A program made the position numbers and the translations under genes. This document shows positions 1-42,165 of a stretch of DNA of 42,414 nucleotides, one piece after another. The stretch lies in IMG/VR virus record IMGVR_UViG_3300029581_000022, positions 1 to 42,414 of that record; one strand, 5' to 3'. The stretch comes from a virus. The notes beneath the pieces were generated by a model, which worked only from the letters and a program-made list of their open reading frames with translations, was not told the DNA's origin and made no database searches. Numbering within the stretch: position 1 is the stretch's first letter; every line of letters starts with the position of its first letter.

Positions 1-99
1 AAATTGAATTTTTAAGTTTAATAAGCTAACGTAAGGCTAACAAACTTTGAATTTTTATCGATAAATGGTAAAATAAAACTGATTTGTAATCAGTGGGTT
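1..99. repeat. Terminal direct repeat, left copy (identical to 42316-42414)
   Basis: Read directly: aaattgaatttttaagtttaataagc...gatttgtaatcagtgggtt occurs at both window ends. Both copies stop exactly at the window edges, as expected for assembly overlap of a circular or terminally redundant molecule. Confidence 0.9.
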
Positions 100-127
100 G
101 CAGGTTCAACTCCTGTCACCAGCTCCA
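78..127 (+). other. att core: 3' half of a tRNA-Thr(UGU), from anticodon arm to CCA, without a matching 5' half
   Basis: Anticodon stem-loop actga-TTTGTAA-tcagt, variable gggtt, T arm gcagg-ttcaact-cctgt, acceptor 3' strand caccagc, discriminator t, then cca. The upstream sequence is AT-rich and cannot form the acceptor or D arms. It lies next to the integrase gene. Confidence 0.75.
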
Positions 128-238: not shown

Positions 239-1372
239 TCAATACTTCATCTTCCGCATTTCGCGCAACAGATAATCCGGGTCATTGTGGGAGACGTACT
301 TGTTTGCTGTGGTGGAGAAATTTTTGTGACCCAAGATGGCTTGCACGGCAGTCTTTTCCAGGCCGCACTCCACCATCTTGCTGCTGGCCGTGTGGCGCAG
401 CGTATGCGGATGCACCCCCTCTATATGGCACTCCTGCATCAAGGCCCGAAACTTTGTAGCCACGTTGCGCTTGTCCAGCTTTGTACCGGCTTTGGACGGT
501 ATCAGCCACTCACAGCCGCTGTCAAGCATCCAAAAGGCAATGATTTTATAAATTGGGTCCAAAATAGGGATAATGCGGTTTTTGCCCGCCTCGGTCTTTT
601 CGCCGCCCTGCATATACCGCTCTTTTAGATGCACATCGTCGCAGCGCATGGAGAGCAGCTCATCGATACGCATACCGGTGTAGAGCAGCACCATTGCGAT
701 TTGTGCTGTCTGCCCAAGCTTCGGGTCGTCTTGCCGGCTGCTGATCTGCTCGATCTCTTGAGCGGTCAAGGTTCGCTCTGCCTTGCCTGTAGCCGCCGGG
801 AGCTGCAAGAGCATGGCATAGTTTTTGTTTATGATGTCCTGAGCCATTGCCCACTCGCAGATCTGGCTGAAAAGTGTGCGCTGCTTTTCGCAGGAGCTGC
901 GGGAGAGGCCCTTTTCCACCATCTGGTCAATCACTTGTTGATAGTCTGCGGCTTTTAAGTCTCGGAGCTGTCGGTCATACAGCAGCGAAGCCTTTGCATA
1001 GGCCAGCTCATAACCCTTTTTCATGTCAGTGCCGAGCTTTTCAAATTTGGGCTGCGCTTTCCATTGGGCGTAGGCATCCGCAAAAGTGCATTTCAGACGC
1101 GCTGCGGGGGTGTTCTGGGCGTTGTAAGCGTCCAGTGCTTGTACTGCTTCACCCGGCGTCGCAAACGTCCCCAGAACGTCTCGCTTGGCTGTCAGGGCCA
1201 CATACGGCTTTGACCTCGTCCCGCTCAACTTATATACACTGCCGCTGCCCTTTGGGCGGCGGCGCTTTTTTCTTTGCTGCGGGGCGGCTTCGGGCTGCTT
1301 CTTGCCGCAGTATGGGCAAAAAGATGCATCATCCGGTATTTCCCGACGGCAGCAGGCGCGAATACACCTCAA
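239..1372 (-). CDS. int: Tyrosine recombinase / phage integrase with N-terminal zinc ribbon
   Basis: 377 aa. N-terminus CCRREIPDDASFCPYCGKK. C-terminal catalytic signature HTLRHTASSKMVE...ILGHKNFSTTANKYVSH (R..H-x-x-R..Y type). TTG start preceded by GAGGTGA. Adjacent to the att core. Confidence 0.9.
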   Translation of the reverse strand: MRCIRACCRREIPDDASFCPYCGKKQPEAAPQQRKKRRRPKGSGSVYKLSGTRSKPYVALTAKRDVLGTFATPGEAVQALDAYNAQNTPAARLKCTFADAYAQWKAQPKFEKLGTDMKKGYELAYAKASLLYDRQLRDLKAADYQQVIDQMVEKGLSRSSCEKQRTLFSQICEWAMAQDIINKNYAMLLQLPAATGKAERTLTAQEIEQISSRQDDPKLGQTAQIAMVLLYTGMRIDELLSMRCDDVHLKERYMQGGEKTEAGKNRIIPILDPIYKIIAFWMLDSGCEWLIPSKAGTKLDKRNVATKFRALMQECHIEGVHPHTLRHTASSKMVECGLEKTAVQAILGHKNFSTTANKYVSHNDPDYLLREMRKMKY

Positions 1373-2467: not shown

Positions 2468-2595
2468 CGCGCAAAACGCGCGTATTTAGCAAAAAGTCAG
2501 CGTAAATTTCAGCGATTCAGCGCAAATGCTAAATTTTTCGCGCATTTTTGCGCGATTAAACGCGCTTGACGCGTTACAATCAACGGTTGTATAAT
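2468..2595 (+). promoter_or_regulatory. Cluster of CGCG-core hairpins, three TCAGCG direct repeats and a TTGACG-18-TATAAT promoter-like element
   Basis: Inverted repeats: cgcgc/gcgcg (2468-2482), tcgcgca-tttt-tgcgcga (2538-2555), gcgcg-attaaa-cgcgc (2550-2565), ATTTAGCA (2484) / TGCTAAAT (2527). TCAGCG at 2497, 2509 and 2517. TTGACG at 2566-2571 and TATAAT at 2590-2595, pointing into the 3' end of the minus-strand gene 2607-3035. Confidence 0.35.
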
Positions 2596-2606
2596 GTGGT
2601 TGTTAC

Positions 2607-3035
2607 CTACATATCGAGCATCGAAATGTTGGAGTCGAGCTCAGACTTCCCTTTTTCGGTTAAAAAATACTTGCCTTTTTCATTCATCTGGATAAAGCCC
2701 CGTTTTTCCAGCGTCTGAAGATGGTAGCCAACATTTTTTATGCCATACTCAAACCACCAAAGCCCCGGATAACCATATCTCGGGTGCGGATATGTCCCAT
2801 ATGAGCAATATTTCAGCAATGCAATTTCGGTTCGGTACAATCCATTCGCGGTAGAGGATTGATTTTGCATCTGCTCTGCAAACGGAATCACTCGACGCAT
2901 ACCATTCACGGCATCAAGAGCAAAAGACGGAACATAATCCTTATAATAGGATGGTTCTTGATAATACTTTTGTTCTTCTGCCGGAATGGGCGGTTCTTCT
3001 CCATTCATAAACGAAAACGCTGTAAATAAATCCAT
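2607..3035 (-). CDS. Hypothetical protein with probable C-terminal winged-helix; second gene of the AT-rich moron
   Basis: 142 aa. The C-terminus HLQTLEKRGFIQMNEKGKYFLTEKGKSEL resembles a MarR/PadR-type wing. AGAGGTG lies 6 nt before the ATG. It starts 3 nt after the upstream gene's stop. Local GC is about 43 %. Confidence 0.55.
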   Translation of the reverse strand: MDLFTAFSFMNGEEPPIPAEEQKYYQEPSYYKDYVPSFALDAVNGMRRVIPFAEQMQNQSSTANGLYRTEIALLKYCSYGTYPHPRYGYPGLWWFEYGIKNVGYHLQTLEKRGFIQMNEKGKYFLTEKGKSELDSNISMLDM

Positions 3036-3038
3036 TGG

Positions 3039-3938
3039 TTACACCTCTTGCAAAGCGGAGTGTTTCATTTCAAGATACGTTTTAGATCGGAGTGGCATTC
3101 GGTCTAAAAACGGCTCAAAAGATGCATACCATCTTTGCGTAGAGTTTGAGCGGCCACGTTCAGTCTTGAGACCGGAAAGCTTCTGGGCCTGTTTTGCATA
3201 GGCATTATCTATCAGCACATTTACGGTTTCAGCAGTGGTTTCCGGGTCAAGCGCCTGAGCTTTCAAGGCTGGAAGGTCACAGGTGAATTTTATTCCCTTC
3301 TGTTGCAGCTCTATCATGTTGTCGAGACGTTCCAAAGCAAGGTCATACCGAGAGAAAAAAGTATCTGGGTCTGCCGTTTTCTGCATGATATTCAGGGAAT
3401 CTTGAAATTCATCCATGAAAATCTTGGCGTTCATCTGGTCAATTTCTGCTATTGTTTCTTCTGGGGTGATCTTATCAATGCTTTCCATTGCAGGGAAATC
3501 AAAAGCATCTGGAGCAGCTGCGGTGTCTCCTGAATGATAAGAGCGGTATTTGGTTTTGTTATAATCGACAACGCAAAGTGCTGCAACCAAAAAAGGAAAG
3601 GCAAAGAAAGCGACAAACAAAAGGGAAATTTCTGAAATATTGAAAGAAGGCTTCCAGATGCTCAGTATAGGACACAAGCAAATTAAACCAATAGCAAAGC
3701 AACCAGCCCATTGCAAAAGCGTAGGCCTTGCGTCTTTCCATTTTACGGATGCTTGCTTGTACGGCTCTCTTCTCTGAATTGTAGAACTAGAAGGAGCTGG
3801 AGAAAACATAGCTTTTGCTATCGCACGTTGTGTGCGTTTGCTTGGCGTGATTGCCTTCCCGACTTTTTTAAGCCACCGTTTGTTTGCGCGGTCTCGCTGA
3901 GTATAAATAGATACCTTCCTGCGGCCGCCTCGTGCCAT
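3039..3938 (-). CDS. Membrane protein (2 predicted TM segments) with basic N-terminus and soluble C-terminal domain; first gene of the AT-rich moron
   Basis: Hydrophobic stretches LLQWAGCFAIGLICLCPILSIW and ISLLFVAFFAFPFLVAALCVV. The preferred start is ATG 3938 (MARGGRRKV...), which has GAGGTG 7 nt upstream. The track's TTG at 3962 lacks an SD. Confidence 0.6.
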   Translation of the reverse strand: MARGGRRKVSIYTQRDRANKRWLKKVGKAITPSKRTQRAIAKAMFSPAPSSSTIQRREPYKQASVKWKDARPTLLQWAGCFAIGLICLCPILSIWKPSFNISEISLLFVAFFAFPFLVAALCVVDYNKTKYRSYHSGDTAAAPDAFDFPAMESIDKITPEETIAEIDQMNAKIFMDEFQDSLNIMQKTADPDTFFSRYDLALERLDNMIELQQKGIKFTCDLPALKAQALDPETTAETVNVLIDNAYAKQAQKLSGLKTERGRSNSTQRWYASFEPFLDRMPLRSKTYLEMKHSALQEV

Positions 3939-3985
3939 ACCGCAACACCTCACACATAACAATTATATAAGGAGGACAAAGCAAA

Positions 3986-4090
3986 ATGCAGGACACATCT
4001 TTTAGCCCGGACGAAATCAGAAAAATCATCGAAAAGCTTAAGAGTGACCCTGCATTCCGTCAGAAAGTCCTCGATATTCTAAACAGCTAA
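3986..4090 (+). CDS. Small hypothetical ORF (34 aa, MQDTSFSPDEIRKIIEKLKSDPAFRQKVLDILNS)
   Basis: AGGAGG lies 10 nt upstream of the ATG. It fills the gap between two minus-strand genes and is below the track's length cutoff. Confidence 0.3.
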   Translation: MQDTSFSPDEIRKIIEKLKSDPAFRQKVLDILNS

Positions 4091-4091
4091 A

Positions 4092-4427
4092 TCACAGCAA
4101 CGCCCGGATCGCATTCTTTTTTGAGTCCGATGCGGCCATGATTTTTCTTACAAGCTCAGCATCTTCTGGGGACAGCCCACTCAGGCTTACCGTCTCCAGG
4201 GCGCTGGGCTTTTCTTTTTGCTCTTCTCCCATAAGCTCTTCAATGGAAATTTGTAGAAAATCAGACACAAGCAATAGCTTATCTTTCGGCGGATAGCGCT
4301 TTCCATTAGCCCATTTTCCTACTGTTCCGTTGGCGAATTTCAAATCTTTCTCCATTTTTGTAATGGAACTGCCTTGATTTTTACACGATACACGGATGAA
4401 TTTCACTAGTTCGGGCAAAGAACGCAT
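4092..4427 (-). CDS. CI-like repressor (XRE HTH)
   Basis: HTH SITKMEKDLKFANGTVGKWANGKRYP. The start at the 6th track codon (MRSLPEL) has GGAGGAG 6 nt upstream. It is divergent from the Cro-like gene across an operator/promoter region. Confidence 0.8.
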   Translation of the reverse strand: MRSLPELVKFIRVSCKNQGSSITKMEKDLKFANGTVGKWANGKRYPPKDKLLLVSDFLQISIEELMGEEQKEKPSALETVSLSGLSPEDAELVRKIMAASDSKKNAIRALL

Positions 4428-4442
4428 AAAAAACTCCTCCAA

Positions 4443-4480
4443 TAGCCTAATTTTCTATTGACAACTAGAAAATTAGGCTA
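4443..4480. promoter_or_regulatory. Operator: perfect 15-bp inverted repeat bracketing the -35 box
   Basis: tagcctaattttcta (4443-4457) and tagaaaattaggcta (4466-4480) are exact reverse complements. Related half-sites ATTTTCTA / ATTTCTA recur at 4587-4594 and 4621-4627. Confidence 0.7.
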
Positions 4481-4486
4481 TATAAT
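4458..4486 (+). promoter_or_regulatory. Early rightward promoter (consensus sigma-A/70: TTGACA-17-TATAAT)
   Basis: TTGACA at 4458-4463, a 17-bp spacer, and TATAAT at 4481-4486. It points toward the Cro-like gene. Confidence 0.8.
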
Positions 4487-4576
4487 AGAGAGCGTAAGGG
4501 GCAAACAAAACCAAAGCCCCTGACAATATTATATCGGGCAGACGCTAGATTTTATTCACTTTGTACCTCGCAACTA

Positions 4577-16310: not shown

Positions 16311-16383
16311 ACTCCGGTAGCTCAAGTGGTAGAGCAGCGGTCTCCAAAACCGCATGTTGCAGGTTCGAGTCCTGCCGGGAGTG
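16311..16383 (+). tRNA. tRNA-Trp (anticodon CCA)
   Basis: 73 nt: actccgg-ta-gctc-aagtggta-gagc-a-gcggt-CTCCAAA-accgc-atgtt-gcagg-ttcgagt-cctgc-cgggagt-g. One G:G mismatch in the acceptor stem. CCA is not encoded. Confidence 0.75.
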
Positions 16384-16507
16384 CTTGCATGATCTGACGA
16401 GAGCGGGGAGTGCAATAGCGGGGCATCCAGCCGCGAAAGTTCTGGACGCAGCAGCACCCACCGTTTACGCCTGTCCGTCAAACTGAATGCACGGGTGCTG
16501 CTTATAT

Positions 16508-16643
16508 GCCGTCATAGCTCAACTGGCAGAGCGCCGCCCATTTAAGGCGGGACAACATTGGTGATACCACGGGAACATCACTGCACAGCCAACCACTGCG
16601 CACATCCATTCCGTGGGTGCTGGTTCGAATCCGGCTGGCGGCA
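16508..16643 (+). tRNA. tRNA-like gene with a 68-nt insertion at the variable-loop position; anticodon loop CAUUUAA (UUU, Lys-type, but A at position 33)
   Basis: Acceptor gccgtca/tggcggc (1 GU). D arm gctc-aactggca-gagc. Anticodon arm ccgcc-CATTTAA-ggcgg. T arm gctgg-ttcgaat-ccggc. Discriminator a. Nt 16551-16618 lie between the anticodon and T arms and contain an 8-bp stem (16567-16574 / 16609-16616). Confidence 0.5.
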
Positions 16644-34760: not shown

Positions 34761-34899
34761 TTTTTGATTTTATCCAACCTCACATTTTTACGGCACAGGC
34801 AGCCGCACACCTCACGGTGAAGATAGGCATTTTGGGAGCAGGCTAGTACACTCCGCAGGGGGCGATGGAAAGCCTGTACAGCTAAAAGGAGGTATCCCA

Positions 34900-36096
34900 A
34901 TGAAGAGAGCTGGAAAGCTCTTTGATACGTTAATCTCAGATGATAATTTGTTGCGAGCCATCGACGAAGTGAACCGCACCCACCACTGGAATCGAGGCCA
35001 CAAGCCCAACACCTGTACGGCGTGGGTGGAGGAGACCAAGGCGCAGCGGGTGGAAGACCTGCGGCGAATACTCGTCGGCGGTTTTGAGCCGAAAAAGCCC
35101 CATGTCAGCCAGCGATGGGACGCCAATGCCCGGAAATGGCGCACCATCAGCGAACCGGCGCAGTGGCCGGACCAGTATGTGCATCACGCCCTCATTCAGG
35201 CGCTGCAGCCGAAGATGATGCGGGGAATGGATTTTTACTGCTGCGGCTCCATCCGGGAGCGCGGGCCGCACCGGGAAAAGAACGCCATCCAGCGATGGAT
35301 GAAGTACGACCGCAAGGGGATGAAGTACGAGTTTTGTGGCGACATCCGCCACTTCTACGACAGTCTGACCCCGGAAGTCGTCATGGCCCGGATGCGGCAG
35401 CTCTACAAGGACTGCCGTGTCCTCGACCTCATCCGGCGCATCATCCGGGACGGCGTAAAGCTGGGGACGTACACTTCCCAGTGGTTCGCCAACGCCGTCT
35501 TACAGCCCCTTGACCGGCTCATCCGGGAGAGCGGCTATTGCAAACACTACGCCCGGTACATGGACAACATGACGGCATTCGGTCCCAACAAACGCAAGCT
35601 GCGGAAGCTCCGCTTACTGGTCGAAGACTGGCTTGACGCCCACGGCCTGCAGCTCAAGGGCGACTGGCAGGTGTTCCCGGTGGCAAAACCGCAGCGCAAA
35701 GAGCCGCTGCTCCCGCCCCGGCGTGGCTATGAGCGCACCAAAGGCCGCCTGCCGGATGCCGTAGGCTATCGCTACGGCAGAGGGTACACCATTCCCCGCA
35801 AGCGGAATCTGCTGCACATCAAGCGGGCGCTGGCGCGGTATCGCAAGCGCAGGCGGCAGGGGAGGCCCATCACGCCCAGAGCGGCAGCAAGTCTGCTCTC
35901 GCGCCTCGGACAGCTCCGGCACTGCAACAATTATCATCTCTATCAATGGCTGTTTCGGGGAGAGCGGGTCGTCCGCGACCTGAAGCACGTCGTCCGAGAG
36001 CATCGGAGAAAGGAGAACCTGACGTGGACTATGTTTTTGGCACAGAGGGCGGCGCTGAAGTCCTCAAGACCATCGGCGACGCTCACACCGGTCTGA
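34900..36096 (+). CDS. DGR-type reverse transcriptase (motif C reads YMDN instead of YxDD)
   Basis: RT motifs: GDIRHFYDSL (A), GVKLGTYTSQWFANAVLQPLD (the DGR-typical SQ motif) and YARYMDNMTAF (C; AAC codon at 35566-35568). AAAGGAGG lies 7 nt before the ATG. Confidence 0.85.
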   Translation: MKRAGKLFDTLISDDNLLRAIDEVNRTHHWNRGHKPNTCTAWVEETKAQRVEDLRRILVGGFEPKKPHVSQRWDANARKWRTISEPAQWPDQYVHHALIQALQPKMMRGMDFYCCGSIRERGPHREKNAIQRWMKYDRKGMKYEFCGDIRHFYDSLTPEVVMARMRQLYKDCRVLDLIRRIIRDGVKLGTYTSQWFANAVLQPLDRLIRESGYCKHYARYMDNMTAFGPNKRKLRKLRLLVEDWLDAHGLQLKGDWQVFPVAKPQRKEPLLPPRRGYERTKGRLPDAVGYRYGRGYTIPRKRNLLHIKRALARYRKRRRQGRPITPRAAASLLSRLGQLRHCNNYHLYQWLFRGERVVRDLKHVVREHRRKENLTWTMFLAQRAALKSSRPSATLTPV

Positions 36097-37963: not shown

Positions 37964-38372
37964 ATGAGCAGCACTATATTCGAGCAAACACCGCGCTATT
38001 ATTATGATCAGCGTGCGTACCCGATTTTGTGGCCCGCAGTGTGTGACCATTTTGCCAACGGCGGCAAAATGGGGCATCTCCGTGCCGTGACCGCTCGAGT
38101 GCGCAACGCCGGACAGCTGCCGCAGCCTTTTTGGCTCGGTGCTACCTGTGGCGGCGGCTCGTGTAGTGCTGCCCGCTGCGCTGCAAGGACTTGACCGACA
38201 GCAGATGACCGCCGCCATCAAAAGCGCACCGCTTGGGAGGGTAGACCGTAAGATAGCCTTACTGCGGTACGTTGAGCGGCTCCCGCTGCCGGACATTGCA
38301 GCACAGACGCATTACAGCCGGACGGCGGTAGGCTACCGGCTGAAAGGTATTGAAAAAATGCTGGATATGTGA
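37964..38372 (+). pseudogene. Sigma-70 region-4 / ArpU-like regulator split into two frames at a T5 run (frameshift, sequencing error or +1 recoding)
   Basis: ORF 37964-38194 and ORF 38139-38372 overlap. The second has no ATG or SD but carries the HTH RKIALLRYVERLPLPDIAAQTHYSRTAVGYRLKGIEKML. Removing one T at 38128-38132 gives a single 135-aa protein. Confidence 0.5.
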
Positions 38373-38378
38373 TATAAT
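38350..38378 (+). promoter_or_regulatory. Near-consensus promoter TTGAAA-17-(TGa)TATAAT
   Basis: TTGAAA at 38350-38355, extended -10 tgaTATAAT at 38370-38378. It overlaps the stop codon of the upstream gene. Confidence 0.7.
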
Positions 38379-38384
38379 ATAAAT

Positions 38385-38496
38385 ATGCTAAGTGCCTTTA
38401 GAATTATATCTTACTTAGAGGTTTAGTTCTATATGGCTCAGTCTACAGCGTAATCTTGATGGGTTCCAGCCATAATGGTTACGCTGTTTTCTTTTT
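38385..38496 (+). ncRNA. Candidate small RNA 1 (about 110 nt), promoter-to-terminator unit
   Basis: Bounded by the 38350 promoter and the terminator acagcgtaa (38445-38453) / ttacgctgt (38479-38487) plus tttctttttgt. atggct (38433-38438) can pair with agccat (38468-38473) inside the terminator loop, giving pseudoknot potential. No SD or ORF. Confidence 0.45.
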
Positions 38497-38506
38497 GTAC
38501 GATTTG

Positions 38507-38515
38507 TGGTATAAT
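38507..38515 (+). promoter_or_regulatory. Extended -10 promoter (TGgTATAAT)
   Basis: tggtataat lies directly after the sRNA-1 terminator. There is no good -35 box at 17 bp. Confidence 0.5.
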
Positions 38516-38521
38516 ATACCC

Positions 38522-38756
38522 AATAGAACCCGCCGAGCCTCTTAACAATGCATATCATGGCGGGTCATTCAAGAGCCAACTCCGTGCTCAACGGAGAATT
38601 AAAAAAGCAGTCGCCAGATTCGGCGCCGACCAGTCTCCCGCTCGCCTACTTATAGTGCGTACCATGCGGGAGACGCAATTTTGCCACTTCGGTGGCAGGG
38701 CGATTACTCGCTCACTTATAATCCATCAGCTTTTAGGCCGGTGGATTTTGTTTTAT
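38522..38756 (+). ncRNA. Candidate structured RNA 2 (about 235 nt)
   Basis: Helices: acccgcc/ggcgggt (38528/38559), ctccgt/acggag (38580/38591), gtctcccgc/gcgggagac (38633/38666), tgccac-UUCG-gtggca (38682-38697). Terminator aatccatc/ggtggatt (38720-38747) plus ttttgtttt. Track ORF 38475-38765 crosses a terminator and a promoter and lacks an SD. Confidence 0.5.
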
Positions 38757-38843
38757 TCTCACTAGTTCTGTCGAAACTCTTGTCTTGCAAGTCAAAACGT
38801 GATATTTTATTTTTGCTTCCAATGTGAGGCCCTTAACAGTTAA

Positions 38844-38885
38844 GCGCTCATGCGGATTTTTCCGTGTGGGCGCTTTTCTTTTTTG
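38844..38885 (+). terminator. Strong rho-independent terminator (third in a row) upstream of the accessory operon
   Basis: gcgctcatgcgga-tttt-tccgtgtgggcgc (13-bp stem, 3 GU pairs) followed by ttttctttttt. Confidence 0.7.
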
Positions 38886-38959
38886 CCCTTCGTTATGCGT
38901 TCGTTGTCTCTTAACTCTCCTTAAAAAGGTAAACTGAGCGCAAAGGGAGGTAAGCGCCA

Positions 38960-39337
38960 ATGTGGAACAAGTTCAGCCCGAACCCTCACGGGGGCAGCGT
39001 GGGTGATTGCGCCGTGCGCGCGGTAGCAGCAGCCACTGGGCAGAGCTGGGAGCAGGCCTACATTGGATTGGCGCTGATCGGCTTTGCTCTCGGCGATATG
39101 CCCAGCGCCAACCGCACATGGGGCGCATACCTCCAAAAGCACGGATTCAAGCGCCGCCTTGTCGAGGCAGACTGCACCACCTGTTACACCGTGGCAGATT
39201 TTGCCCGGGAGTATCCGCACGGCGTGTATGTGCTGGGGTGTTCCGGCCACGTTCTGGCCGTCATCGATGGCAAGTGGTGGGACAGCTGGGACAGTGGCGC
39301 GGAATGCCCGATCTACTACTGGTACAAGGAGGACTAA
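38960..39337 (+). CDS. Hypothetical protein with papain-like Cys/His signature
   Basis: 125 aa. GGSVGDCAVRAVAAATG (candidate nucleophile Cys) and GCSGHVLAVIDGKWWDSWD (candidate His). AAAGGGAGG lies 9 nt upstream. Confidence 0.6.
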   Translation: MWNKFSPNPHGGSVGDCAVRAVAAATGQSWEQAYIGLALIGFALGDMPSANRTWGAYLQKHGFKRRLVEADCTTCYTVADFAREYPHGVYVLGCSGHVLAVIDGKWWDSWDSGAECPIYYWYKED

Positions 39338-39340
39338 ACG

Positions 39341-39790
39341 ATGCCGTACAATCCATATGGCTATCAAATGCCAAACTACTACGGGCAGCCTATGCCTGAC
39401 CAGCTCACGCAGCTTCGGCAGAATGCCGGGTATCAGCCGCCCATGATGAGCCAACCGACAGGGCAAAGCTCCCCATCTACGCCTCCGATCATCTGGGTGC
39501 AGGGCGAAGAGGGCGCAAAAGCCTACATGGTAGCCGCCGGGAACAGCGTGCTCTTGATGGATAGCGAGAACAGCGCCTTTTACATCAAGAGCACGGACGC
39601 AAGCGGAATGCCGCTGCCGCTCAGGGCCTTTTATTACAAAGAGCGCACCACGGCAGCTAAGATGCCCGCTCAGGCCGTCCAACAACCCGGCGGGGAGTTT
39701 GTCACCAGGGCAGAGTTTGACGCCCTGGCAGCCCGCTGTGCAGCGCTGGAAAAGCAAGAACCCACAAAACCTGAAACGGAGGTCAAGTGA
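39341..39790 (+). CDS. Hypothetical protein: P/Q/Y-rich N-terminus plus beta-rich core
   Basis: MPYNPYGYQMPNYYGQPMPDQ..., then IIWVQGEEGAKAYMVAAGNSVLLMDSENSAFYIKSTD. AAGGAGG upstream. Confidence 0.6.
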   Translation: MPYNPYGYQMPNYYGQPMPDQLTQLRQNAGYQPPMMSQPTGQSSPSTPPIIWVQGEEGAKAYMVAAGNSVLLMDSENSAFYIKSTDASGMPLPLRAFYYKERTTAAKMPAQAVQQPGGEFVTRAEFDALAARCAALEKQEPTKPETEVK

Positions 39791-39792
39791 TC

Positions 39793-40020
39793 ATGGCAAA
39801 TCCTCTTTTTAATGCACTGGGCGGCGGCAAAGCATCTTCCACGGCCGGCCCTATGGGCCAGTTCGGCCAGATGATGCAGCAGTTCCAGCAGTTCAAGGCT
39901 AATTTTCAGGGCGATCCAAAGCAGGAGGTGCAAAAGCTCCTTCAATCCGGGCGGATGAGCCAAGACCAGCTCAACCAGCTTCAGGCAATGGCTCAGCAGT
40001 TCCAGCAGTTTTTACACTAA
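39793..40020 (+). CDS. Small Gln-rich protein
   Basis: MANPLFNALGGG...QMMQQFQQFKANFQG...QLNQLQAMAQQFQQFLH. ATG 39793 lies 10 nt after GGAGG. Confidence 0.55.
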   Translation: MANPLFNALGGGKASSTAGPMGQFGQMMQQFQQFKANFQGDPKQEVQKLLQSGRMSQDQLNQLQAMAQQFQQFLH

Positions 40021-40081
40021 GTCGTAACCGTGGCCACGGTCGAGATACACTTTTTATCAAAAATTTCGAAAGGAGTACAAA

Positions 40082-40858
40082 ATGTCTCTTTCTTCTGACA
40101 ACATCGGCTTGACTATGCCGGTGCAGCCCGCCAATACCAACAACGGCAACGGCTTTGGCTTTGGCGGCGATGGTTCGTGGTGGATCATCGTGCTCTTCCT
40201 TTTCATCTTCTGCGGCTGGGGCGGTAACTGGGGCGGCAATCGCGCCGGTGCCGGCACCGGCGTCGTAGATGGCTACATCCTGACCAGCGACTTCGCCAAC
40301 ATCGAACGCAAGATCGATGGCGTAAACAACGGTATGTGTGACGGTTTTTACCAGCAGGCACAGCTCATCAACGGCGTCCAGCAGAACATGAGTAACGGAT
40401 TCATGTCCGCCGAAATCAGCCGTGCAAATCAGCAGGCCGCTTTCATGCAGCAGCTGTTTGCTATGCAGATGCAGGCACAGGATTGCTGCTGCGAGACCCG
40501 GTCTGCTATCCAGGGCGTCAATTATAATCTGGCTACCCAGTCCTGCGAGACCCGGAACACTGTGCAGAACGCGACCCGGGACATCGTAGACAACCAGAAC
40601 CAGAACGCCCGGGCTATCCTGGACGCTCTCACAGCTCAGCGCATCGAGGCAAAGGACGCCAAGATCGCGGAGCAGAGCCAGCAGCTGTTCGCAGCACAGC
40701 TTGCGGCATCTCAGGCAGCCCAGAACGAAACGCTCAAGGCCTACATGAGCGGTCAGCTGGCCTACTACAACCCGCGTCCCGTTCCTGCCTTCCCGGTTCC
40801 TGCTCCGTACCAGTACGGTAATTGTGGCACCGGATGCGGCTGTAACGGCTGCGCATAA
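40082..40858 (+). CDS. Membrane-anchored Gly/Gln/Asn/Cys-rich protein
   Basis: GNGFGFGGDGSWWIIVLFLFIFCGWGGNWGGN is a Gly-flanked TM segment reminiscent of YjcZ-type sporulation peptides. CETR is repeated (DCCCETRSAIQ..SCETRNTVQ). Q/N-rich coiled segment. C-terminus GNCGTGCGCNGCA. Confidence 0.6.
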   Translation: MSLSSDNIGLTMPVQPANTNNGNGFGFGGDGSWWIIVLFLFIFCGWGGNWGGNRAGAGTGVVDGYILTSDFANIERKIDGVNNGMCDGFYQQAQLINGVQQNMSNGFMSAEISRANQQAAFMQQLFAMQMQAQDCCCETRSAIQGVNYNLATQSCETRNTVQNATRDIVDNQNQNARAILDALTAQRIEAKDAKIAEQSQQLFAAQLAASQAAQNETLKAYMSGQLAYYNPRPVPAFPVPAPYQYGNCGTGCGCNGCA

Positions 40859-40925
40859 CCAAATAACGGCAACTGACTACAATTTGTAGCCTGTTCAGCC
40901 CCTGAGCTGATTTTGCAAACCAGAG

Positions 40926-40953
40926 CGCCGGGGCAAAAGTCCCGGCGTTTTTT
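40926..40953 (+). terminator. Rho-independent terminator within the accessory operon
   Basis: cgccggg-gcaaaagt-cccggcg followed by tttttt. Confidence 0.7.
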
Positions 40954-40973
40954 CTATGAAAGGAGCCGATAAA

Positions 40974-41396
40974 ATGGCTGAATTTAGCAACTCCAACACC
41001 GTCACGGTGGCGGCGGGTGAAAACCTTCCCCTGACCGAGACCGCCGTGAAAGCCCCCGCCTGCATCATGCACCGTGAGGGCAGCGGCCTCGTGACCCTGC
41101 GCGGCCTGACAAACCAGTGCAAAGCCCGCTTCAAGGTGAGTTTTGGCGGCAATATTGCCGTTCCCACCGGCGGCACTGTGGGACCCATTTCCGTGGCGCT
41201 GGCTGTCGGCGGTGAGTCGCTGACCAGCGCGACCGCGATTGTCACCCCGGCGGCAGTCGAAAATTACTTCAATGTTTTCGTGGCTGCGTTCATCGAGGTG
41301 CCGCGTGGCTGCTGCGTGACCGTGGCGGTTAAAAACACCAGTACGCAGGCAGTCAGCATTGCAAACAGCAATCTGATTGTTGAGCGGGTAGCATAA
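40974..41396 (+). CDS. All-beta protein resembling BclA-C-terminal/TNF-like or Ena(DUF3992)-like jelly-roll subunits
   Basis: 140 aa. Alternating beta pattern NTVTVAAGENLPL...FKVSFGGNIAVPTGGTVGPISVALAVGGESL...CCVTVAVKNTSTQAVSIANSNLIVERV. AAAGGAG lies 8 nt before ATG 40974. The assignment rests on pattern memory only. Confidence 0.55.
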   Translation: MAEFSNSNTVTVAAGENLPLTETAVKAPACIMHREGSGLVTLRGLTNQCKARFKVSFGGNIAVPTGGTVGPISVALAVGGESLTSATAIVTPAAVENYFNVFVAAFIEVPRGCCVTVAVKNTSTQAVSIANSNLIVERVA

Positions 41397-41412
41397 GAAA
41401 GGAGATAAAGTC

Positions 41413-41814
41413 ATGCTGGATAAACTGAATCATCTGAAGGATGAGATGTGCGACGAGCTCATGGAGCTGACCGACAAAAAGAACCGCTCTCCGGGCGATG
41501 TTGAGATGATCGGCGAGATCGTGGACATCATTTTGGACATTCACCGCATCGAGGATTACTGCGAGGGCGGCGAGTACAGCCGTACAGGCGAGTGGGAAGC
41601 CGACATGCGCGGATCCTTCAACCGCGACGCCGGAAACGGTTACAACCGGGGCAACAGCTACGCCAACCGTGGCCGTCACTATGTGCGCGGACACTACTCC
41701 CGCACGGATGGCCGTGATCGCATGATCTCTGACATTGAGGACATGATGCAGGACGCCACCGGCGCAGAGCGAGACGCTTACAAACGCGCGGCAGACATTC
41801 TGCGCAACGCATAA
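41413..41814 (+). CDS. Hypothetical acidic/Arg-Tyr-Gly-rich protein
   Basis: 133 aa with a central GNGYNRGNSYANRGRHYVRGHYSRTDGRD. AAAGGAG upstream. Confidence 0.6.
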   Translation: MLDKLNHLKDEMCDELMELTDKKNRSPGDVEMIGEIVDIILDIHRIEDYCEGGEYSRTGEWEADMRGSFNRDAGNGYNRGNSYANRGRHYVRGHYSRTDGRDRMISDIEDMMQDATGAERDAYKRAADILRNA

Positions 41815-41832
41815 GGGAGGAGGGCGGCAAGT

Positions 41833-42165
41833 ATGGACATCGACGAGATCAACACCCATATCCACAAGCTGAAATGCGGATCGACGGACTGGCAGAGCGT
41901 GGAAAAACTTGCCGCCCTCTGCACCGTGAGGAATGAGCTGGAAGAAAAGCAGGCACCGGCAGAAATGCAGACTCAAGCGCTGCCTCCCGCGTCGTACCCG
42001 GCGGCATGCTCCACAAAAGCAAATCCGCAAAGCGAGTTCGTGGAAGCGGCCAGCGCCGCGCCCTTTGGAGGCTTGATGGAAGTGCTTGATGAGCACATGA
42101 GCGCCATAAAGCTTGCATACCCGAAAGAGTATGAGTTGGTCATGCGGAAGATAACCGCATTGTAA
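41833..42165 (+). CDS. Hypothetical protein
   Basis: 110 aa, GGGAGGAGGG upstream. Last gene before the att-arm repeats. Confidence 0.55.
   Translation: MDIDEINTHIHKLKCGSTDWQSVEKLAALCTVRNELEEKQAPAEMQTQALPPASYPAACSTKANPQSEFVEAASAAPFGGLMEVLDEHMSAIKLAYPKEYELVMRKITAL

What the first reader, a model, noticed from the sequence alone, without database searches (positions are those of the whole stretch)
38350..38890. Island of promoter/terminator-bounded structured small RNAs between the lysis module and the accessory operon
A near-perfect promoter (TTGAAA-17-TGaTATAAT, 38350-38378) is followed about 110 nt later by a terminator whose loop can pseudoknot with upstream sequence (38433-38438 with 38468-38473). 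Directly after it, an extended -10 promoter (TGgTATAAT) precedes a ~235-nt segment. That segment has at least four strong helices, including a UUCG-capped hairpin, and its own terminator (38720-38756). A third strong terminator (38844-38885) follows. None of the units has an SD-led ORF. The region is AT-rich relative to the genome. I cannot assign either RNA to a known family from memory. They could be regulatory sRNAs, antitoxin-type or decoy RNAs, or cis-acting attenuators controlling read-through into the 38960-42165 operon.
Basis: seen in the sequence. Interest (0 to 1): 0.65.

Follow-up and report, generated by a model that had tools for sequence, protein, structure and literature searches.

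The report
Phage-borne AbiF antitoxin-like RNA, no toxin
The second small RNA in this gut-phage intergenic island carries two hairpins of the "abiF" type, which normally neutralise the AbiF abortive-infection RNase, yet the phage has no abiF gene, so the RNA is most likely an orphan antitoxin that the phage may use as a decoy against AbiF defence.

Summary
The sequence features are real. There are two promoters, three strong intrinsic terminators and several stable hairpins, and no conserved ORF.

The ~235-nt unit (38521-38757) belongs to a known family after all. Its 5' hairpin (38528-38565) is an abiF-motif RNA (Rfam RF03085, 34.7 bits against a gathering score of 37). A model I built only from hairpins lying directly upstream of Abi_2/AbiF genes scores it at 37.5 bits, E 6e-8. 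A second hairpin (38633-38674) is a diverged paralogue. A model built without the first hairpin type picks out genuine AbiF-adjacent motifs as its top hits.

In the normal arrangement this hairpin sits 15-30 nt upstream of a ~300-aa AbiF toxin gene. Here no AbiF homologue exists in the whole 42-kb phage or in 90 related loci.

The island is a hypervariable mosaic of RNA cassettes in a phage family with more than 567 members. Relatives carry abiF-type hairpins in one to three types, DUF3800-VIII RNA, or a tRNA-like element.

My best reading is a stand-alone orphan type III antitoxin-like RNA, probably neutralising AbiF encoded elsewhere. That function is inferred, not shown. Unit 1 and the downstream terminator remain unassigned.

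The parts
38139..38372 (+). Sigma-70 region-4-like small ORF. Its 3' end carries promoter 1. It served as the conserved left anchor of the island.
   Evidence: Pfam Sigma70_r4_2, E 2e-4, below the curated cutoff. More than 567 relatives in IMG/VR at 92-97% aa identity.
38350..38378 (+). Promoter 1: TTGAAA, 17-nt spacer, TG-n-TATAAT.
   Evidence: Matches 11 of 12 positions plus the TG. The -10 element is largely conserved in relatives.
38385..38500 (+). Unit 1 (cassette A1): an AT-rich hairpin plus an intrinsic terminator (stem 38445-38487, then U-tract). Function unassigned. It could be a small RNA or simply the 3' end and terminator of the lysis/sigma operon.
   Evidence: Fold z = -4.1. No Rfam match. 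Present in only 4 of the relatives; cassettes A2 and A3 replace it elsewhere.
38507..38515 (+). Promoter 2: extended -10 element TGgTATAAT, with no good -35.
   Evidence: Read from the sequence. Conserved as TTGTGGTATAAT in at least 51 of 84 loci. It resembles the promoter TGTGGTTATAT that precedes a canonical abiF motif and gene in Clostridia locus L168.
38521..38757 (+). Unit 2: a predicted ~235-nt non-coding RNA. The transcription start is inferred at about 7 nt after the -10 element.
   Evidence: Fold z = -5.1. No conserved ORF. No gene is called here in near-identical contigs.
38528..38565 (+). Hairpin alpha: an abiF-motif RNA with a 7-bp outer stem, a GC/GC inner helix, the apical loop CUCUUAACAAU and a 3' bulge. 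It is preceded by the conserved flank UAGAAC.
   Evidence: Rfam RF03085 at 34.7 bits (gathering score 37), E 2.3e-4, full-length match. Model R1, built from AbiF-adjacent hairpins, gives 37.5 bits, E 6e-8, and this is the only significant hit in the window. Model R2, built without any alpha sequence, gives 23.1 bits, E 3e-5.
38580..38628 (+). Cassette C: two small hairpins (38580-38596 and 38608-38628) separated by an A-run.
   Evidence: RNAalifold on 10 variants predicts 12 pairs, of which 4 are kept through changes on both sides. The reverse strand reads as a terminator-like site at 38625-38612.
38633..38674 (+). Hairpin beta: a diverged abiF-type hairpin with a 9-bp stem (GUCUCCCGC / GCGGGAGAC). 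It is found in 51 of 85 loci, second to gamma (60 of 85), which the window lacks.
   Evidence: It aligns without gaps to alpha and gamma and shares GCCU, GC, A30 and A33 with them. The common stem is 94.5% paired, with 4 of 7 pairs changed on both sides. The beta+gamma model R2 finds genuine AbiF-adjacent motifs as its top hits. The Rfam model itself does not score beta.
38682..38757 (+). Cassette E: a UUCG-capped hairpin (38682-38697), a second hairpin (38698-38713) and the terminator of unit 2 (38720-38747 plus U-tract to 38757).
   Evidence: Folds. The cassette follows beta in about 25 relatives at 96-98% identity. In other relatives this position holds DUF3800-VIII RNA.
38758..38841 (+). 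Cassette F: a conserved spacer with a weak promoter-like site (TTGTCT, 17-nt spacer, TGaTATTTT, 38780-38808). The promoter assignment is inference only.
   Evidence: Conserved at 86-98% in many relatives. The promoter scan does not call it.
38842..38885 (+). Third intrinsic terminator (15-bp stem plus U-tract), inside the conserved leader (cassette G, 38842-38959) of the downstream operon. It is a possible attenuator.
   Evidence: Terminator scan. Conserved in most relatives whatever lies upstream of it.
38960..42165 (+). Downstream accessory operon of seven ORFs with no Pfam family. It is not AbiF and is not demonstrably linked to the RNAs.
   Evidence: ORFs. No Pfam matches. The same gene order occurs in 42-43-kb contigs.

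Best explanation
Unit 2 (about 38521-38757) is a stand-alone non-coding RNA gene. It has its own extended -10 promoter and its own intrinsic terminator. Its functional core is two abiF-type hairpins, alpha (38528-38565) and beta (38633-38674).

These hairpins are homologues of the RNA antitoxin of the AbiF type III toxin-antitoxin / abortive-infection system (AbiFr of Prevotellaceae, RCd22 of C. difficile prophage phi027). In that system one hairpin binds each monomer of the AbiF HEPN-RNase dimer and blocks its active site.

The toxin gene that normally follows the hairpin within 15-30 nt is absent here. It is missing from the whole phage and from all examined relatives, so the RNA is an orphan antitoxin.

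The mechanism I think most likely is this. The phage, or the prophage, makes this RNA in quantity. The RNA binds AbiF-family RNases encoded in trans by the host chromosome, by an integrative element or by a rival prophage. The toxin therefore stays neutralised when infection would otherwise release it. This would be antitoxin mimicry, as pseudo-ToxI of phage phiTE does against ToxN.

Shown here: homology of the hairpins to AbiF-linked motifs, the structure, the promoter and terminator, the non-coding nature, the absence of abiF, and conservation and mobility of the module. Inferred: that the RNA is expressed, that it binds AbiF, and that this benefits the phage.

The confidence given (0.5) is for the whole statement including the inferred trans-acting function. 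Taken separately, I put alpha being an abiF-motif homologue at about 0.9, beta being a diverged homologue at about 0.8, and the absence of abiF in cis at about 0.95.

Unit 1 and the third terminator are separate cassettes of the same mosaic island. Their roles are not resolved.
For: (1) Family assignment. The Rfam abiF model gives a full-length hit at 38529-38565, 34.7 bits, E 2.3e-4.

(2) The core is a real AbiF-linked motif. The alpha core AGCCTCTYAACRATGCNNANNNNGG matched in more than 120 stretches across many phyla. My own estimate from its information content was about 17 chance matches in 596 Gb. Of the 120 loci fetched, 65 have a same-strand AbiF ORF of about 300 aa starting about 15-30 nt after the hairpin and its U-tract. 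Three of these ORFs were confirmed as Pfam Abi_2 with E 1e-48 to 1e-54.

(3) Model tests. Model R1 was built only from AbiF-adjacent hairpins plus the two RCd22 motifs. It scores alpha at 37.5 bits, E 6e-8, the only significant hit in the window. The reciprocal model R2 was built only from beta and gamma hairpins. Its top hits in 98 kb are exactly the AbiF-adjacent motifs of Clostridia (L168 at 32.3 bits, L195 at 29.1) and Actinomycetota (L135 at 30.6, L170 at 23.5). It also scores the motif in front of the abundant AbiF P0073 at 38.7 bits, E 1e-10. That motif differs from gamma by three compensatory stem pairs and three loop bases.

(4) Structure. The common 7-bp stem is 94.5% paired across 44 distinct alpha, beta and gamma sequences. 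Four pairs change on both sides, and sliding the partners drops pairing to 33-53%.

(5) Shared layout. Alpha keeps the conserved 5' flank UAGAAC. It also keeps a promoter-to-hairpin layout like the canonical Clostridial locus L168 and like RCd22.

(6) No toxin. A 140-sequence AbiF HMM finds nothing better than E 3 in six-frame translations of the window plus 90 related loci (704 kb). Positive controls score E 1e-98 to 1e-122 (earlier version). Pfam and PADLOC scans of the 50 largest window ORFs show no Abi_2. Contigs of 42.4-43.0 kb with the same layout suggest the window is essentially the whole phage genome.

(7) Maintained, not decaying. At least one abiF-type hairpin is present in 70 of 85 loci. 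Three paralogous types occur in arrays of one to three types. The alpha-C-beta module also occurs, with its own promoter, next to an integrase in a Faecalibacterium MAG in a different context.

(8) Location. Position just after the lysis module matches where prophage abiF systems sit (PMC12373285).

(9) Possible targets exist. AbiF genes with gamma/alpha-like or beta/alpha-like motifs occur in gut Clostridia. One is in a roughly 10-kb integrative element whose DnaB_2 replication protein is 61% identical over 77 aa to the window's. Another lies next to a GH25 endolysin in an Ethanoligenens MAG.

(10) Precedents. RCd22 neutralises AbiF in trans (PMC12373285). [quoted passage not shown] Pseudo-ToxI mimicry is documented (PMC3475682).
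Against: - No expression or binding data exist.
- The alpha score is below Rfam's curated gathering score (34.7 against 37).
- The Rfam model does not recognise beta at all.
- My model R1 was trained on sequences selected with a pattern that alpha matches by construction, so its score is partly circular. The non-circular part is that this pattern is AbiF-linked in genomes.
- Alpha lacks the U-tract that follows canonical motifs. Its 3' bulge (AUAUCAU) differs from the commonest UCAAAUC, and the bulge is said to carry the inhibitory nucleotides (PMC12737573).
- The host of this phage is not identified, and no AbiF was shown in that host.
- About 30 of 106 genomic motif instances with enough downstream sequence also lack AbiF. 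Orphan copies are therefore common and could equally be debris or serve another partner.
- In some relatives small cargo ORFs follow beta directly. This fits a cis-acting leader role as well.
Confidence: 0.5

Rival explanations
1. Cis-acting expression platform for swappable cargo. Promoter 2 plus the 5' hairpins would form a conserved leader giving mRNA stabilisation, SD sequestration or attenuation. Variable 'moron' genes are inserted behind it. The window would then hold an empty cassette that ends at its terminator.
For: In L002, L003 and L078, small ORFs start about 10 nt after beta, whose 3' arm GGGAGAC could act as a sequestered SD. The distance between the two anchors ranges from 124 to 3093 nt, with many different inserts. 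RCd22 also acts in cis through its terminator (PMC12373285).
Against: The most common layouts have no ORF between the hairpins and a terminator (g-b-E, a-C-b-E). Larger cargo genes are mostly on the opposite strand. This reading does not explain why loop nucleotides shared with AbiF-bound motifs across phyla are conserved. The module also occurs alone next to an integrase in L140.
Confidence: 0.17
2. Evolutionary remnant. An ancestral prophage abiF system lost its toxin gene, and the promoter and RNA persist without function or serve only as homology patches for cassette recombination.
For: The position after the lysis module is where prophage abiF systems sit. About 30 orphan motifs occur in cellular genomes. 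Cassette boundaries coincide with the conserved hairpins.
Against: The hairpins are retained in 70 of 85 loci with a conserved strong promoter. They have diversified into three paralogues with compensatory stem changes. They moved independently into another element. Not even a fragment of abiF is detectable in 704 kb.
Confidence: 0.1
3. Antitoxin or partner RNA of an unrecognised phage-encoded protein. That protein would be a non-Abi_2 toxin or effector, for example one of the unannotated products of 38960-42165 or of the cargo genes. The system would then be complete but have a novel protein component.
For: Several genomic abiF hairpins are followed by ORFs of about 282 aa that my AbiF HMM does not recognise (L150, L152, L163, L189). 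The downstream operon has no Pfam family.
Against: There is no consistent co-occurrence between hairpin content and the downstream operon type, whether the 125-aa gene or the 'SYY' gene. Two strong terminators separate the RNA from the operon. None of the operon ORFs shows an Rx4-6H HEPN signature on inspection.
Confidence: 0.08
4. Base-pairing regulatory small RNAs, or processive-antitermination (put-like) RNAs, that control phage or host genes, including read-through of the downstream terminators.
For: The layout is promoter, then hairpins, then terminators, then operon. The third terminator lies in a conserved leader.
Against: No complementarity longer than 11 nt to any part of the phage. 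No Rfam antitermination or sRNA family matches. The specific similarity to a protein-binding motif is left unexplained.
Confidence: 0.07

Closest known systems
abiF RNA motif (Rfam RF03085; Weinberg et al. 2017), also called AbiFr, the ncRNA antitoxin of AbiF (Zilberzwige-Tal et al. 2025, PDB 8VZ6, as cited in PMC12373285 and PMC12737573)
   Same: Hairpin alpha has the same architecture: outer stem, a one-base gap, a short inner helix, an 11-nt apical loop and a 6-nt 3' bulge. Its apical sequence AGCCUCUUAACAAUGC is the same, its 5' flank UAGAAC is the same, and it has its own promoter.
   Different: No abiF/Abi_2 gene follows it or exists anywhere in the phage. There is no U-tract directly after the hairpin. 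The 3' bulge sequence is a Clostridia-like variant. The Rfam score is 2.3 bits under the gathering score. It is embedded in a longer multi-hairpin RNA.
RCd22 of C. difficile prophage phi027/phiC2 (Saunier et al. 2025, PMC12373285)
   Same: It is prophage-encoded and lies at the lysis module. It has a SigA-type promoter, one RNA carrying two abiF-type hairpins, and a Rho-independent terminator. It is shown to work in trans.
   Different: RCd22 is about 100-130 nt long, its motifs are 19 nt apart, and abiF follows it directly. Here the RNA is about 235 nt, the motifs are 67 nt apart with two extra hairpins between them, further hairpins follow, and there is no toxin gene.
Pseudo-ToxI of phage phiTE (Blower et al. 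2012, PMC3475682): a phage-encoded mimic of a type III antitoxin RNA
   Same: A phage carries an antitoxin-like RNA without the toxin. This is the functional model proposed here.
   Different: The RNA and toxin families differ (ToxI repeats and ToxN, not abiF hairpins and a HEPN AbiF). Escape was shown experimentally for phiTE, whereas nothing has been tested here.
DUF3800-VIII RNA (RF03075) and other Weinberg 2017 terminator-ended motifs
   Same: In relatives it occupies the same slot of the island, immediately after beta or cassette delta, at 66-82 bits. It ends in a terminator with a tail homologous to the window's.
   Different: The window itself has no DUF3800-VIII match. The function of that motif is unknown (PMC5737381).

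Membership tests
abiF RNA motif (RF03085) | Reaches the curated Rfam gathering score (37 bits). | tested here: not met
   Alpha scores 34.7 bits, E 2.3e-4 in an 851-nt search. A relative's alpha scores 28.6 bits. Beta and gamma are not reported at E <= 10.
abiF RNA motif (RF03085) | Consensus secondary structure and conserved loop nucleotides. | tested here: met
   Full-length alignment to model positions 1-37, with one non-canonical inner pair. Model R1 from AbiF-adjacent hairpins gives 37.5 bits, E 6e-8. The stem shows covariation across alpha, beta and gamma.
abiF RNA motif (RF03085) | Lies immediately upstream of an abiF (Abi_2, PF07751) gene. | tested here: not met
   No AbiF in six frames of the window plus 90 loci (best E 3.1; controls 1e-98 or better). 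No Abi_2 among the 50 largest window ORFs.
abiF RNA motif (RF03085) | Beta is homologous to AbiF-linked motifs. | tested here: met
   Model R2 (beta and gamma only) ranks AbiF-adjacent motifs first: L168 at 32.3 bits, L135 at 30.6, L195 at 29.1, L214 at 38.7. It also detects alpha at 23.1 bits. This supports homology, not Rfam membership.
Type III toxin-antitoxin system AbiF/AbiFr (RCd22-type) | A HEPN RNase toxin encoded in the same operon. | tested here: not met
Type III toxin-antitoxin system AbiF/AbiFr (RCd22-type) | An antitoxin RNA with its own SigA-type promoter, one or more abiF hairpins and a Rho-independent terminator. | tested here: met
   Extended -10 at 38507-38515, hairpins alpha and beta, terminator at 38720-38757. 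For the RCd22 layout.
Type III toxin-antitoxin system AbiF/AbiFr (RCd22-type) | The RNA binds AbiF directly and neutralises it. | not testable with these tools
   This needs co-expression rescue, EMSA or co-purification.
Phage-encoded antitoxin RNA mimic (pseudo-ToxI type) | The phage carries an antitoxin homologue without the toxin. | tested here: met
Phage-encoded antitoxin RNA mimic (pseudo-ToxI type) | The phage's host encodes the cognate toxin. | tested here: inconclusive
   AbiF genes with gamma/alpha-like and beta/alpha-like motifs exist in gut Clostridia elements (L214-L216, L219-L222). The phage's host is only guessed as Faecalibacterium from L140. The hosts of those elements could not be named.
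Phage-encoded antitoxin RNA mimic (pseudo-ToxI type) | Confers escape from abortive infection. | not testable with these tools
   This needs plaque assays with and without the RNA on AbiF-positive hosts.
DUF3800-VIII RNA (RF03075) | Match to the covariance model in the window. | tested here: not met
   No hit in the window at E <= 5. Hits of 66-82 bits occur in relatives L002, L003, L004, L006, L022 and L065.

The most novel reading that the evidence does not exclude
The island would be an RNA-only counter-defence locus. A widespread family of temperate gut phages would keep a hypervariable array of small protein-sequestering decoy RNAs and shuffle them as cassettes to neutralise RNA-guarded toxin or defence systems. 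The cassettes would be up to three paralogous AbiF-antitoxin hairpins, DUF3800-VIII RNA and a tRNA-like element with an aberrant anticodon loop. If true, this would be the first natural case of antitoxin mimicry against AbiF, the proposed ancestor of Cas13. It would also give a functional clue for the orphan DUF3800 RNA motifs.
Probability: 0.25. Interest if true: 0.85.

Novelty: new variant of a known kind. Interest (0 to 1): 0.64.

Why it matters
AbiF with its RNA was recognised only in 2025 as a type III toxin-antitoxin defence and as the proposed ancestor of Cas13.

In the papers I could search, the known ways phages escape the AbiD/F group are protein mutations and a cos-site hairpin of phage sk1. 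I found no report of phage-encoded abiF-motif RNAs that lack the toxin.

An abundant gut-phage family keeps such orphan hairpins under a strong promoter, in three paralogous types. This gives a directly testable candidate for RNA-based anti-AbiF mimicry. It also gives a natural panel of hairpin variants for studying AbiF-RNA specificity.

The same slot holds DUF3800-VIII RNA and a tRNA-like gene in relatives. This hints that other 'orphan' structured RNAs from comparative screens may be phage counter-defence cargo.

If the RNA proves inert, the locus is still a clear example of cassette-wise mosaicism of non-coding genes in phages.

Tried and rejected
- The whole-window Rfam scan at gathering thresholds found nothing in the island. 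Only the permissive local scan exposed the abiF hit.
- The weak ctRNA_pGA1, ctRNA_p42d and trpB matches at 38786-38888 (17.9-22.9 bits against gathering scores of 45-59) are terminator look-alikes and were dismissed.
- The 307-aa ORF at 3039-3962 in a low-GC patch was tested as a candidate hidden AbiF. It has no Pfam or PADLOC match and no HMM hit.
- The ORF 38475-38765 was rejected as coding.
- An antisense-target search within the phage found nothing above chance.
- The single-sequence MFE of unit 2 pairs the alpha 5' arm with the far 3' end. I set this aside in favour of the local hairpins supported by the models and by covariation.
- The search for related loci with the L168 AbiF on viral contigs found no relative.
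- Two attempts to name the hosts of the AbiF-bearing elements returned no organism names: cluster-member names and homologues of a flanking trigger factor.
- Cassette E's terminator shares its tail with the DUF3800-VIII cassette, but I could not show homology of the stem, so I make no claim.
- I considered ssDNA hairpins acting as attC-like recombination sites. I did not pursue this because the loop sequence conservation matches an RNA that is bound by a protein.
Full report
OBSERVATION

- Promoter 1 is TTGAAA, a 17-nt spacer, then TG-n-TATAAT, at 38350-38378. It matches 11 of 12 consensus positions and overlaps the stop codon of a small sigma-r4-like ORF.
- Unit 1 (38385-38500) folds into a hairpin plus a long-stem terminator, with z = -4.1.
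- An extended -10 promoter (TGgTATAAT, 38507-38515) precedes unit 2. Unit 2 folds with z = -5.1 and ends in a terminator at 38720-38757.
- A 15-bp terminator follows at 38842-38885.
- The region is AT-rich: GC is 0.48 against 0.556 for the window.
- The 96-codon ORF 38475-38765 has no SD sequence. It is cut by a stop codon in relatives that share the RNA at 92-98% identity. Gene callers left this stretch empty in near-identical contigs.
- The proposed pseudoknot is only marginally unusual, with p about 0.04 against shuffles.

CONTEXT

The window is a temperate siphophage-like genome. It encodes an integrase, SSB, DnaB_2, MT-A70, a terminase, an SPP1-type portal, a tape measure, an RT preceded by an RT-18 RNA, a GH25 endolysin and holin-like ORFs. 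Contigs of 42.4-43.0 kb with the same right-end layout suggest that the window is essentially the whole phage.

The sigma-like ORF to the left of the island has more than 567 relatives in IMG/VR. I kept 80 of them, plus three human-gut phage scaffolds from GenBank.

THE ISLAND IS A MOSAIC OF RNA CASSETTES

The distance between the conserved end of the sigma-like gene and the conserved third terminator ranges from 124 to 3093 nt. When the window is cut into cassettes and mapped on all loci, the cassettes combine almost freely, and the window's order (A1-alpha-C-beta-E-F-G) is unique among 85 loci.

- Unit 1 (A1) is one of at least three alternatives at its position.
- The slot after the hairpins holds cassette E (as in the window), a DUF3800-VIII RNA (RF03075, 66-82 bits), a plain terminator, small ORFs, or kilobases of mostly opposite-strand cargo.
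- In some relatives a tRNA-like gene lies between the hairpins. Rfam's tRNA model scores it at 43-44 bits, but ARAGORN finds no normal anticodon.

IDENTITY OF UNIT 2

A permissive Rfam scan of 38200-39050 gave a full-length match of 38529-38565 to the abiF motif (RF03085): 34.7 bits against a gathering score of 37, E 2.3e-4.

The literature shows what this motif is. It is the RNA antitoxin of AbiF (Abi_2, a HEPN RNase), a type III toxin-antitoxin and abortive-infection system and the proposed ancestor of Cas13. In C. difficile prophage phi027 the RNA RCd22 has a SigA promoter, two abiF motifs and a terminator. It lies in the lysis module just upstream of abiF, binds AbiF, and neutralises it in cis and in trans (PMC12373285; PMC12737573).

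I tested the link independently. The alpha core pattern matched in more than 120 stretches across many phyla. My own estimate from its information content was about 17 chance matches in 596 Gb.

- In 65 of the 120 loci fetched, an AbiF ORF of about 300 aa starts about 15-30 nt after the hairpin and its U-tract. Three of these were confirmed as Pfam Abi_2 with E 1e-48 to 1e-54.
- Stems covary freely among these loci, for example CCCCC/GGGGG, CCUGCC/GGCAGG and CCCUCC/GGAGGG.
- A covariance model built only from these AbiF-adjacent hairpins plus the two RCd22 motifs scores the window hairpin at 37.5 bits, E 6e-8. This is the only significant hit in the window.
- That score is partly circular, because the training set was chosen with a pattern that alpha fits. 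The AbiF linkage of the pattern is not circular.
- Alpha also keeps the conserved 5' flank UAGAAC. Its promoter-to-hairpin spacing resembles a canonical Clostridial abiF locus (L168) and RCd22.

A SECOND, DIVERGED ABIF-TYPE HAIRPIN

Across the family there are three hairpin types.

- Alpha occurs in 23 of 85 loci.
- Beta occurs in 51 of 85. In the window it is 38633-38674.
- Gamma occurs in 60 of 85 and is absent from the window.
- At least one type is present in 70 of 85 loci, and arrays contain one to three types.

The three types align without gaps. They share GCCU, the GC/GC inner pairs and two adenines, while their stems differ. The common 7-bp stem is 94.5% paired, four pairs change on both sides, and pairing falls to 33-53% when the partners are slid.

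Rfam's model does not score beta or gamma. A model built from beta and gamma alone gives the reciprocal result:

- Its top hits in 98 kb are exactly the AbiF-adjacent motifs of Clostridia (32.3 and 29.1 bits) and Actinomycetota (30.6 and 23.5 bits).
- It scores the motif in front of the abundant AbiF P0073 at 38.7 bits, E 1e-10.
- It scores alpha in the window at 23.1 bits, with no other site in the window.

The P0073 motif differs from gamma by three compensatory stem pairs and three loop bases. The spacer cassette C forms two hairpins, with 4 of 12 pairs kept through double changes.

NO TOXIN GENE

Pfam and PADLOC scans of the 50 largest window ORFs show no Abi_2 or DUF3800. A 140-sequence AbiF HMM run with filters off finds nothing better than E 3 in six-frame translations of the window and 90 related loci (704 kb). 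Positive controls score E 1e-98 to 1e-122 (earlier version). The abiF-type RNA is therefore an orphan here.

THE MODULE IS MAINTAINED AND MOBILE

Promoter 2 is conserved. The alpha-C-beta module, followed by DUF3800-VIII, also lies next to and divergent from an integrase in a Faecalibacterium MAG, in an unrelated context. This is also the only hint to the host.

Orphan abiF hairpins occur elsewhere too. One sits between a holin-like ORF and a lysozyme in a Lachnospiraceae MAG.

CANDIDATE TARGETS EXIST

- AbiF P0073/P0123 belongs to a cluster of 1015 member sequences. It sits behind a gamma/alpha-like motif in a roughly 10-kb integrative element with an integrase, HTH regulators, a DnaB_C helicase and DUF6291/DnaB_2. 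The element is inserted in a gut Clostridia-like chromosome of 54% GC. Its DnaB_2 protein is 61% identical over 77 aa to the window's.
- An Ethanoligenens MAG has AbiF with a beta/alpha-like motif next to a GH25 endolysin.
- I could not name the hosts.

MECHANISM

The supported part is this. Unit 2 is a non-coding RNA gene with its own promoter and terminator, and it carries two homologues of the AbiF antitoxin hairpin. This matches RCd22's two-motif design for an AbiF dimer.

The inferred part is that the RNA binds AbiF-family RNases made in trans and keeps them inactive during infection or lysogeny. That is antitoxin mimicry, as with pseudo-ToxI (PMC3475682). [quoted passage not shown]

The rival readings are a cis-acting leader for swappable cargo, a toxin-less remnant, a partner of an unrecognised phage protein, and base-pairing or antitermination RNAs. 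They are weighed in their own section.

Unit 1 remains unassigned. The third terminator lies in a conserved leader of the 38960 operon and may be an attenuator, but nothing here tests that.

NOVELTY AND VERDICT

The motif and the AbiF system are known. Three things are new here: the orphan state of the RNA in a large phage family, its diversification into three paralogues, and its place in a cassette island of structured RNAs.

I found no report of phage-encoded abiF-motif RNAs without abiF in the searchable literature. The original 2025 Cell paper was not readable.

I rate the finding as a new variant of a known kind. Interest is moderately high because the hypothesis is specific and easy to test.

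Noticed in passing
window 34808-34891 (+) and 34900-36096 (+): An RT-18 RNA (RF03021, 63.7 bits against a gathering score of 41.3) lies directly upstream of a 398-aa reverse transcriptase (Pfam RVT_1; PADLOC RT models). This is probably a diversity-generating retroelement next to the tail genes. The same RNA occurs in relatives L013 and L075.
   Followed up: partly
window 16508-16643 (+): A tRNA-like match (45.4 bits) with a roughly 65-nt insertion after the anticodon arm. ARAGORN does not call it. It lies 125 nt downstream of tRNA-Trp (16311-16384). It could be an intron-containing or disrupted tRNA.
   Followed up: no
window 60-116 (+), next to integrase 239-1372 (-): A partial tRNA match (27.1 bits, model positions 10-63) at the left end beside the integrase. 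It is probably the tRNA-derived attachment site of the prophage.
   Followed up: no
window 37964-38194 and 38139-38372 (+): Two overlapping ORFs of about 76 aa in different frames precede the island. The second resembles sigma-70 region 4. Together they may be one regulator gene read through a frameshift, or a split gene. The arrangement is also called as two genes in near-identical contigs.
   Followed up: no
L002 3293-3356, L003 3294-3357, L004 4780-4843, L006 4483-4546, L065 2813-2876, L022 4395-4458 (-): DUF3800-VIII RNA (RF03075, 66-82 bits) occupies the slot that holds cassette E in the window. In L022 it is inverted. No DUF3800 protein was found in the window phage. The function of this motif is unknown.
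   Followed up: partly
L057 4458-4528, L042 4451-4521, L065 2365-2435, L076 4391-4463: A tRNA-like gene (Rfam tRNA model, 43-44 bits) is embedded between the abiF-type hairpins of the same transcription unit. ARAGORN calls nothing in three of the four loci and only an unassigned 'tRNA-???' (anticodon 'ac') in L076. By my reading of the sequence the anticodon loop is about 12 nt long. It could be a decoy or a replacement for a tRNA-targeting nuclease, but that is pure speculation.
   Followed up: partly
L002 3053-3225; L003 3048-3228; L078: Small cargo ORFs start about 10 nt after hairpin beta, whose 3' arm GGGAGAC could be a sequestered SD. One encodes a 56-aa, strongly hydrophobic peptide (MANKIYHFLSRVLFALIIFGATSSVLK...), which looks like a toxin or holin.
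   Followed up: no
L094 6753-6777 (-), L103 7293-7317 (-), and about 30 further loci among L084-L203: Well-formed abiF hairpins with no AbiF within 8 kb are common in cellular genomes (41 of 106 loci with room, of which about 7 are coding-sequence chance hits in archaea). One lies between a holin-like ORF and a GH24-like lysozyme in a Lachnospiraceae MAG. Several Bacteroides loci (L150, L152, L163, L189) have a different ORF of about 282 aa right after the hairpin.
   Followed up: partly
L160 7427-7721 (-): Three tandem abiF hairpins with a 135-nt period precede one abiF gene in an Ignavibacteriales MAG. This is a natural array of antitoxin hairpins.
   Followed up: no
L220 6227-16203; L221 7368-17356; L222: The abundant AbiF P0073/P0123 lies in a roughly 10-kb integrative element with a 476-aa integrase, HTH regulators, a DnaB_C helicase, DUF6291/DnaB_2 and small ORFs. 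It is inserted between housekeeping genes and looks like a phage satellite carrying a defence gene.
   Followed up: partly
window 38960-42165 (+): A conserved seven-gene operon at the right end has no Pfam family. It includes a 258-aa Gly/Asn/Gln-rich protein with a hydrophobic segment and a Cys-rich tail, and a 133-aa Arg/Gly/Tyr-rich protein. Relatives carry an alternative first gene (MSYYQTPGAPYVPQ...).
   Followed up: no
window 2501-4500, ORF 3039-3962 (-): A low-GC patch (0.42-0.44) near the integrase holds a 307-aa ORF with no Pfam or PADLOC match, next to two HTH proteins. It could be lysogeny-module cargo.
   Followed up: partly
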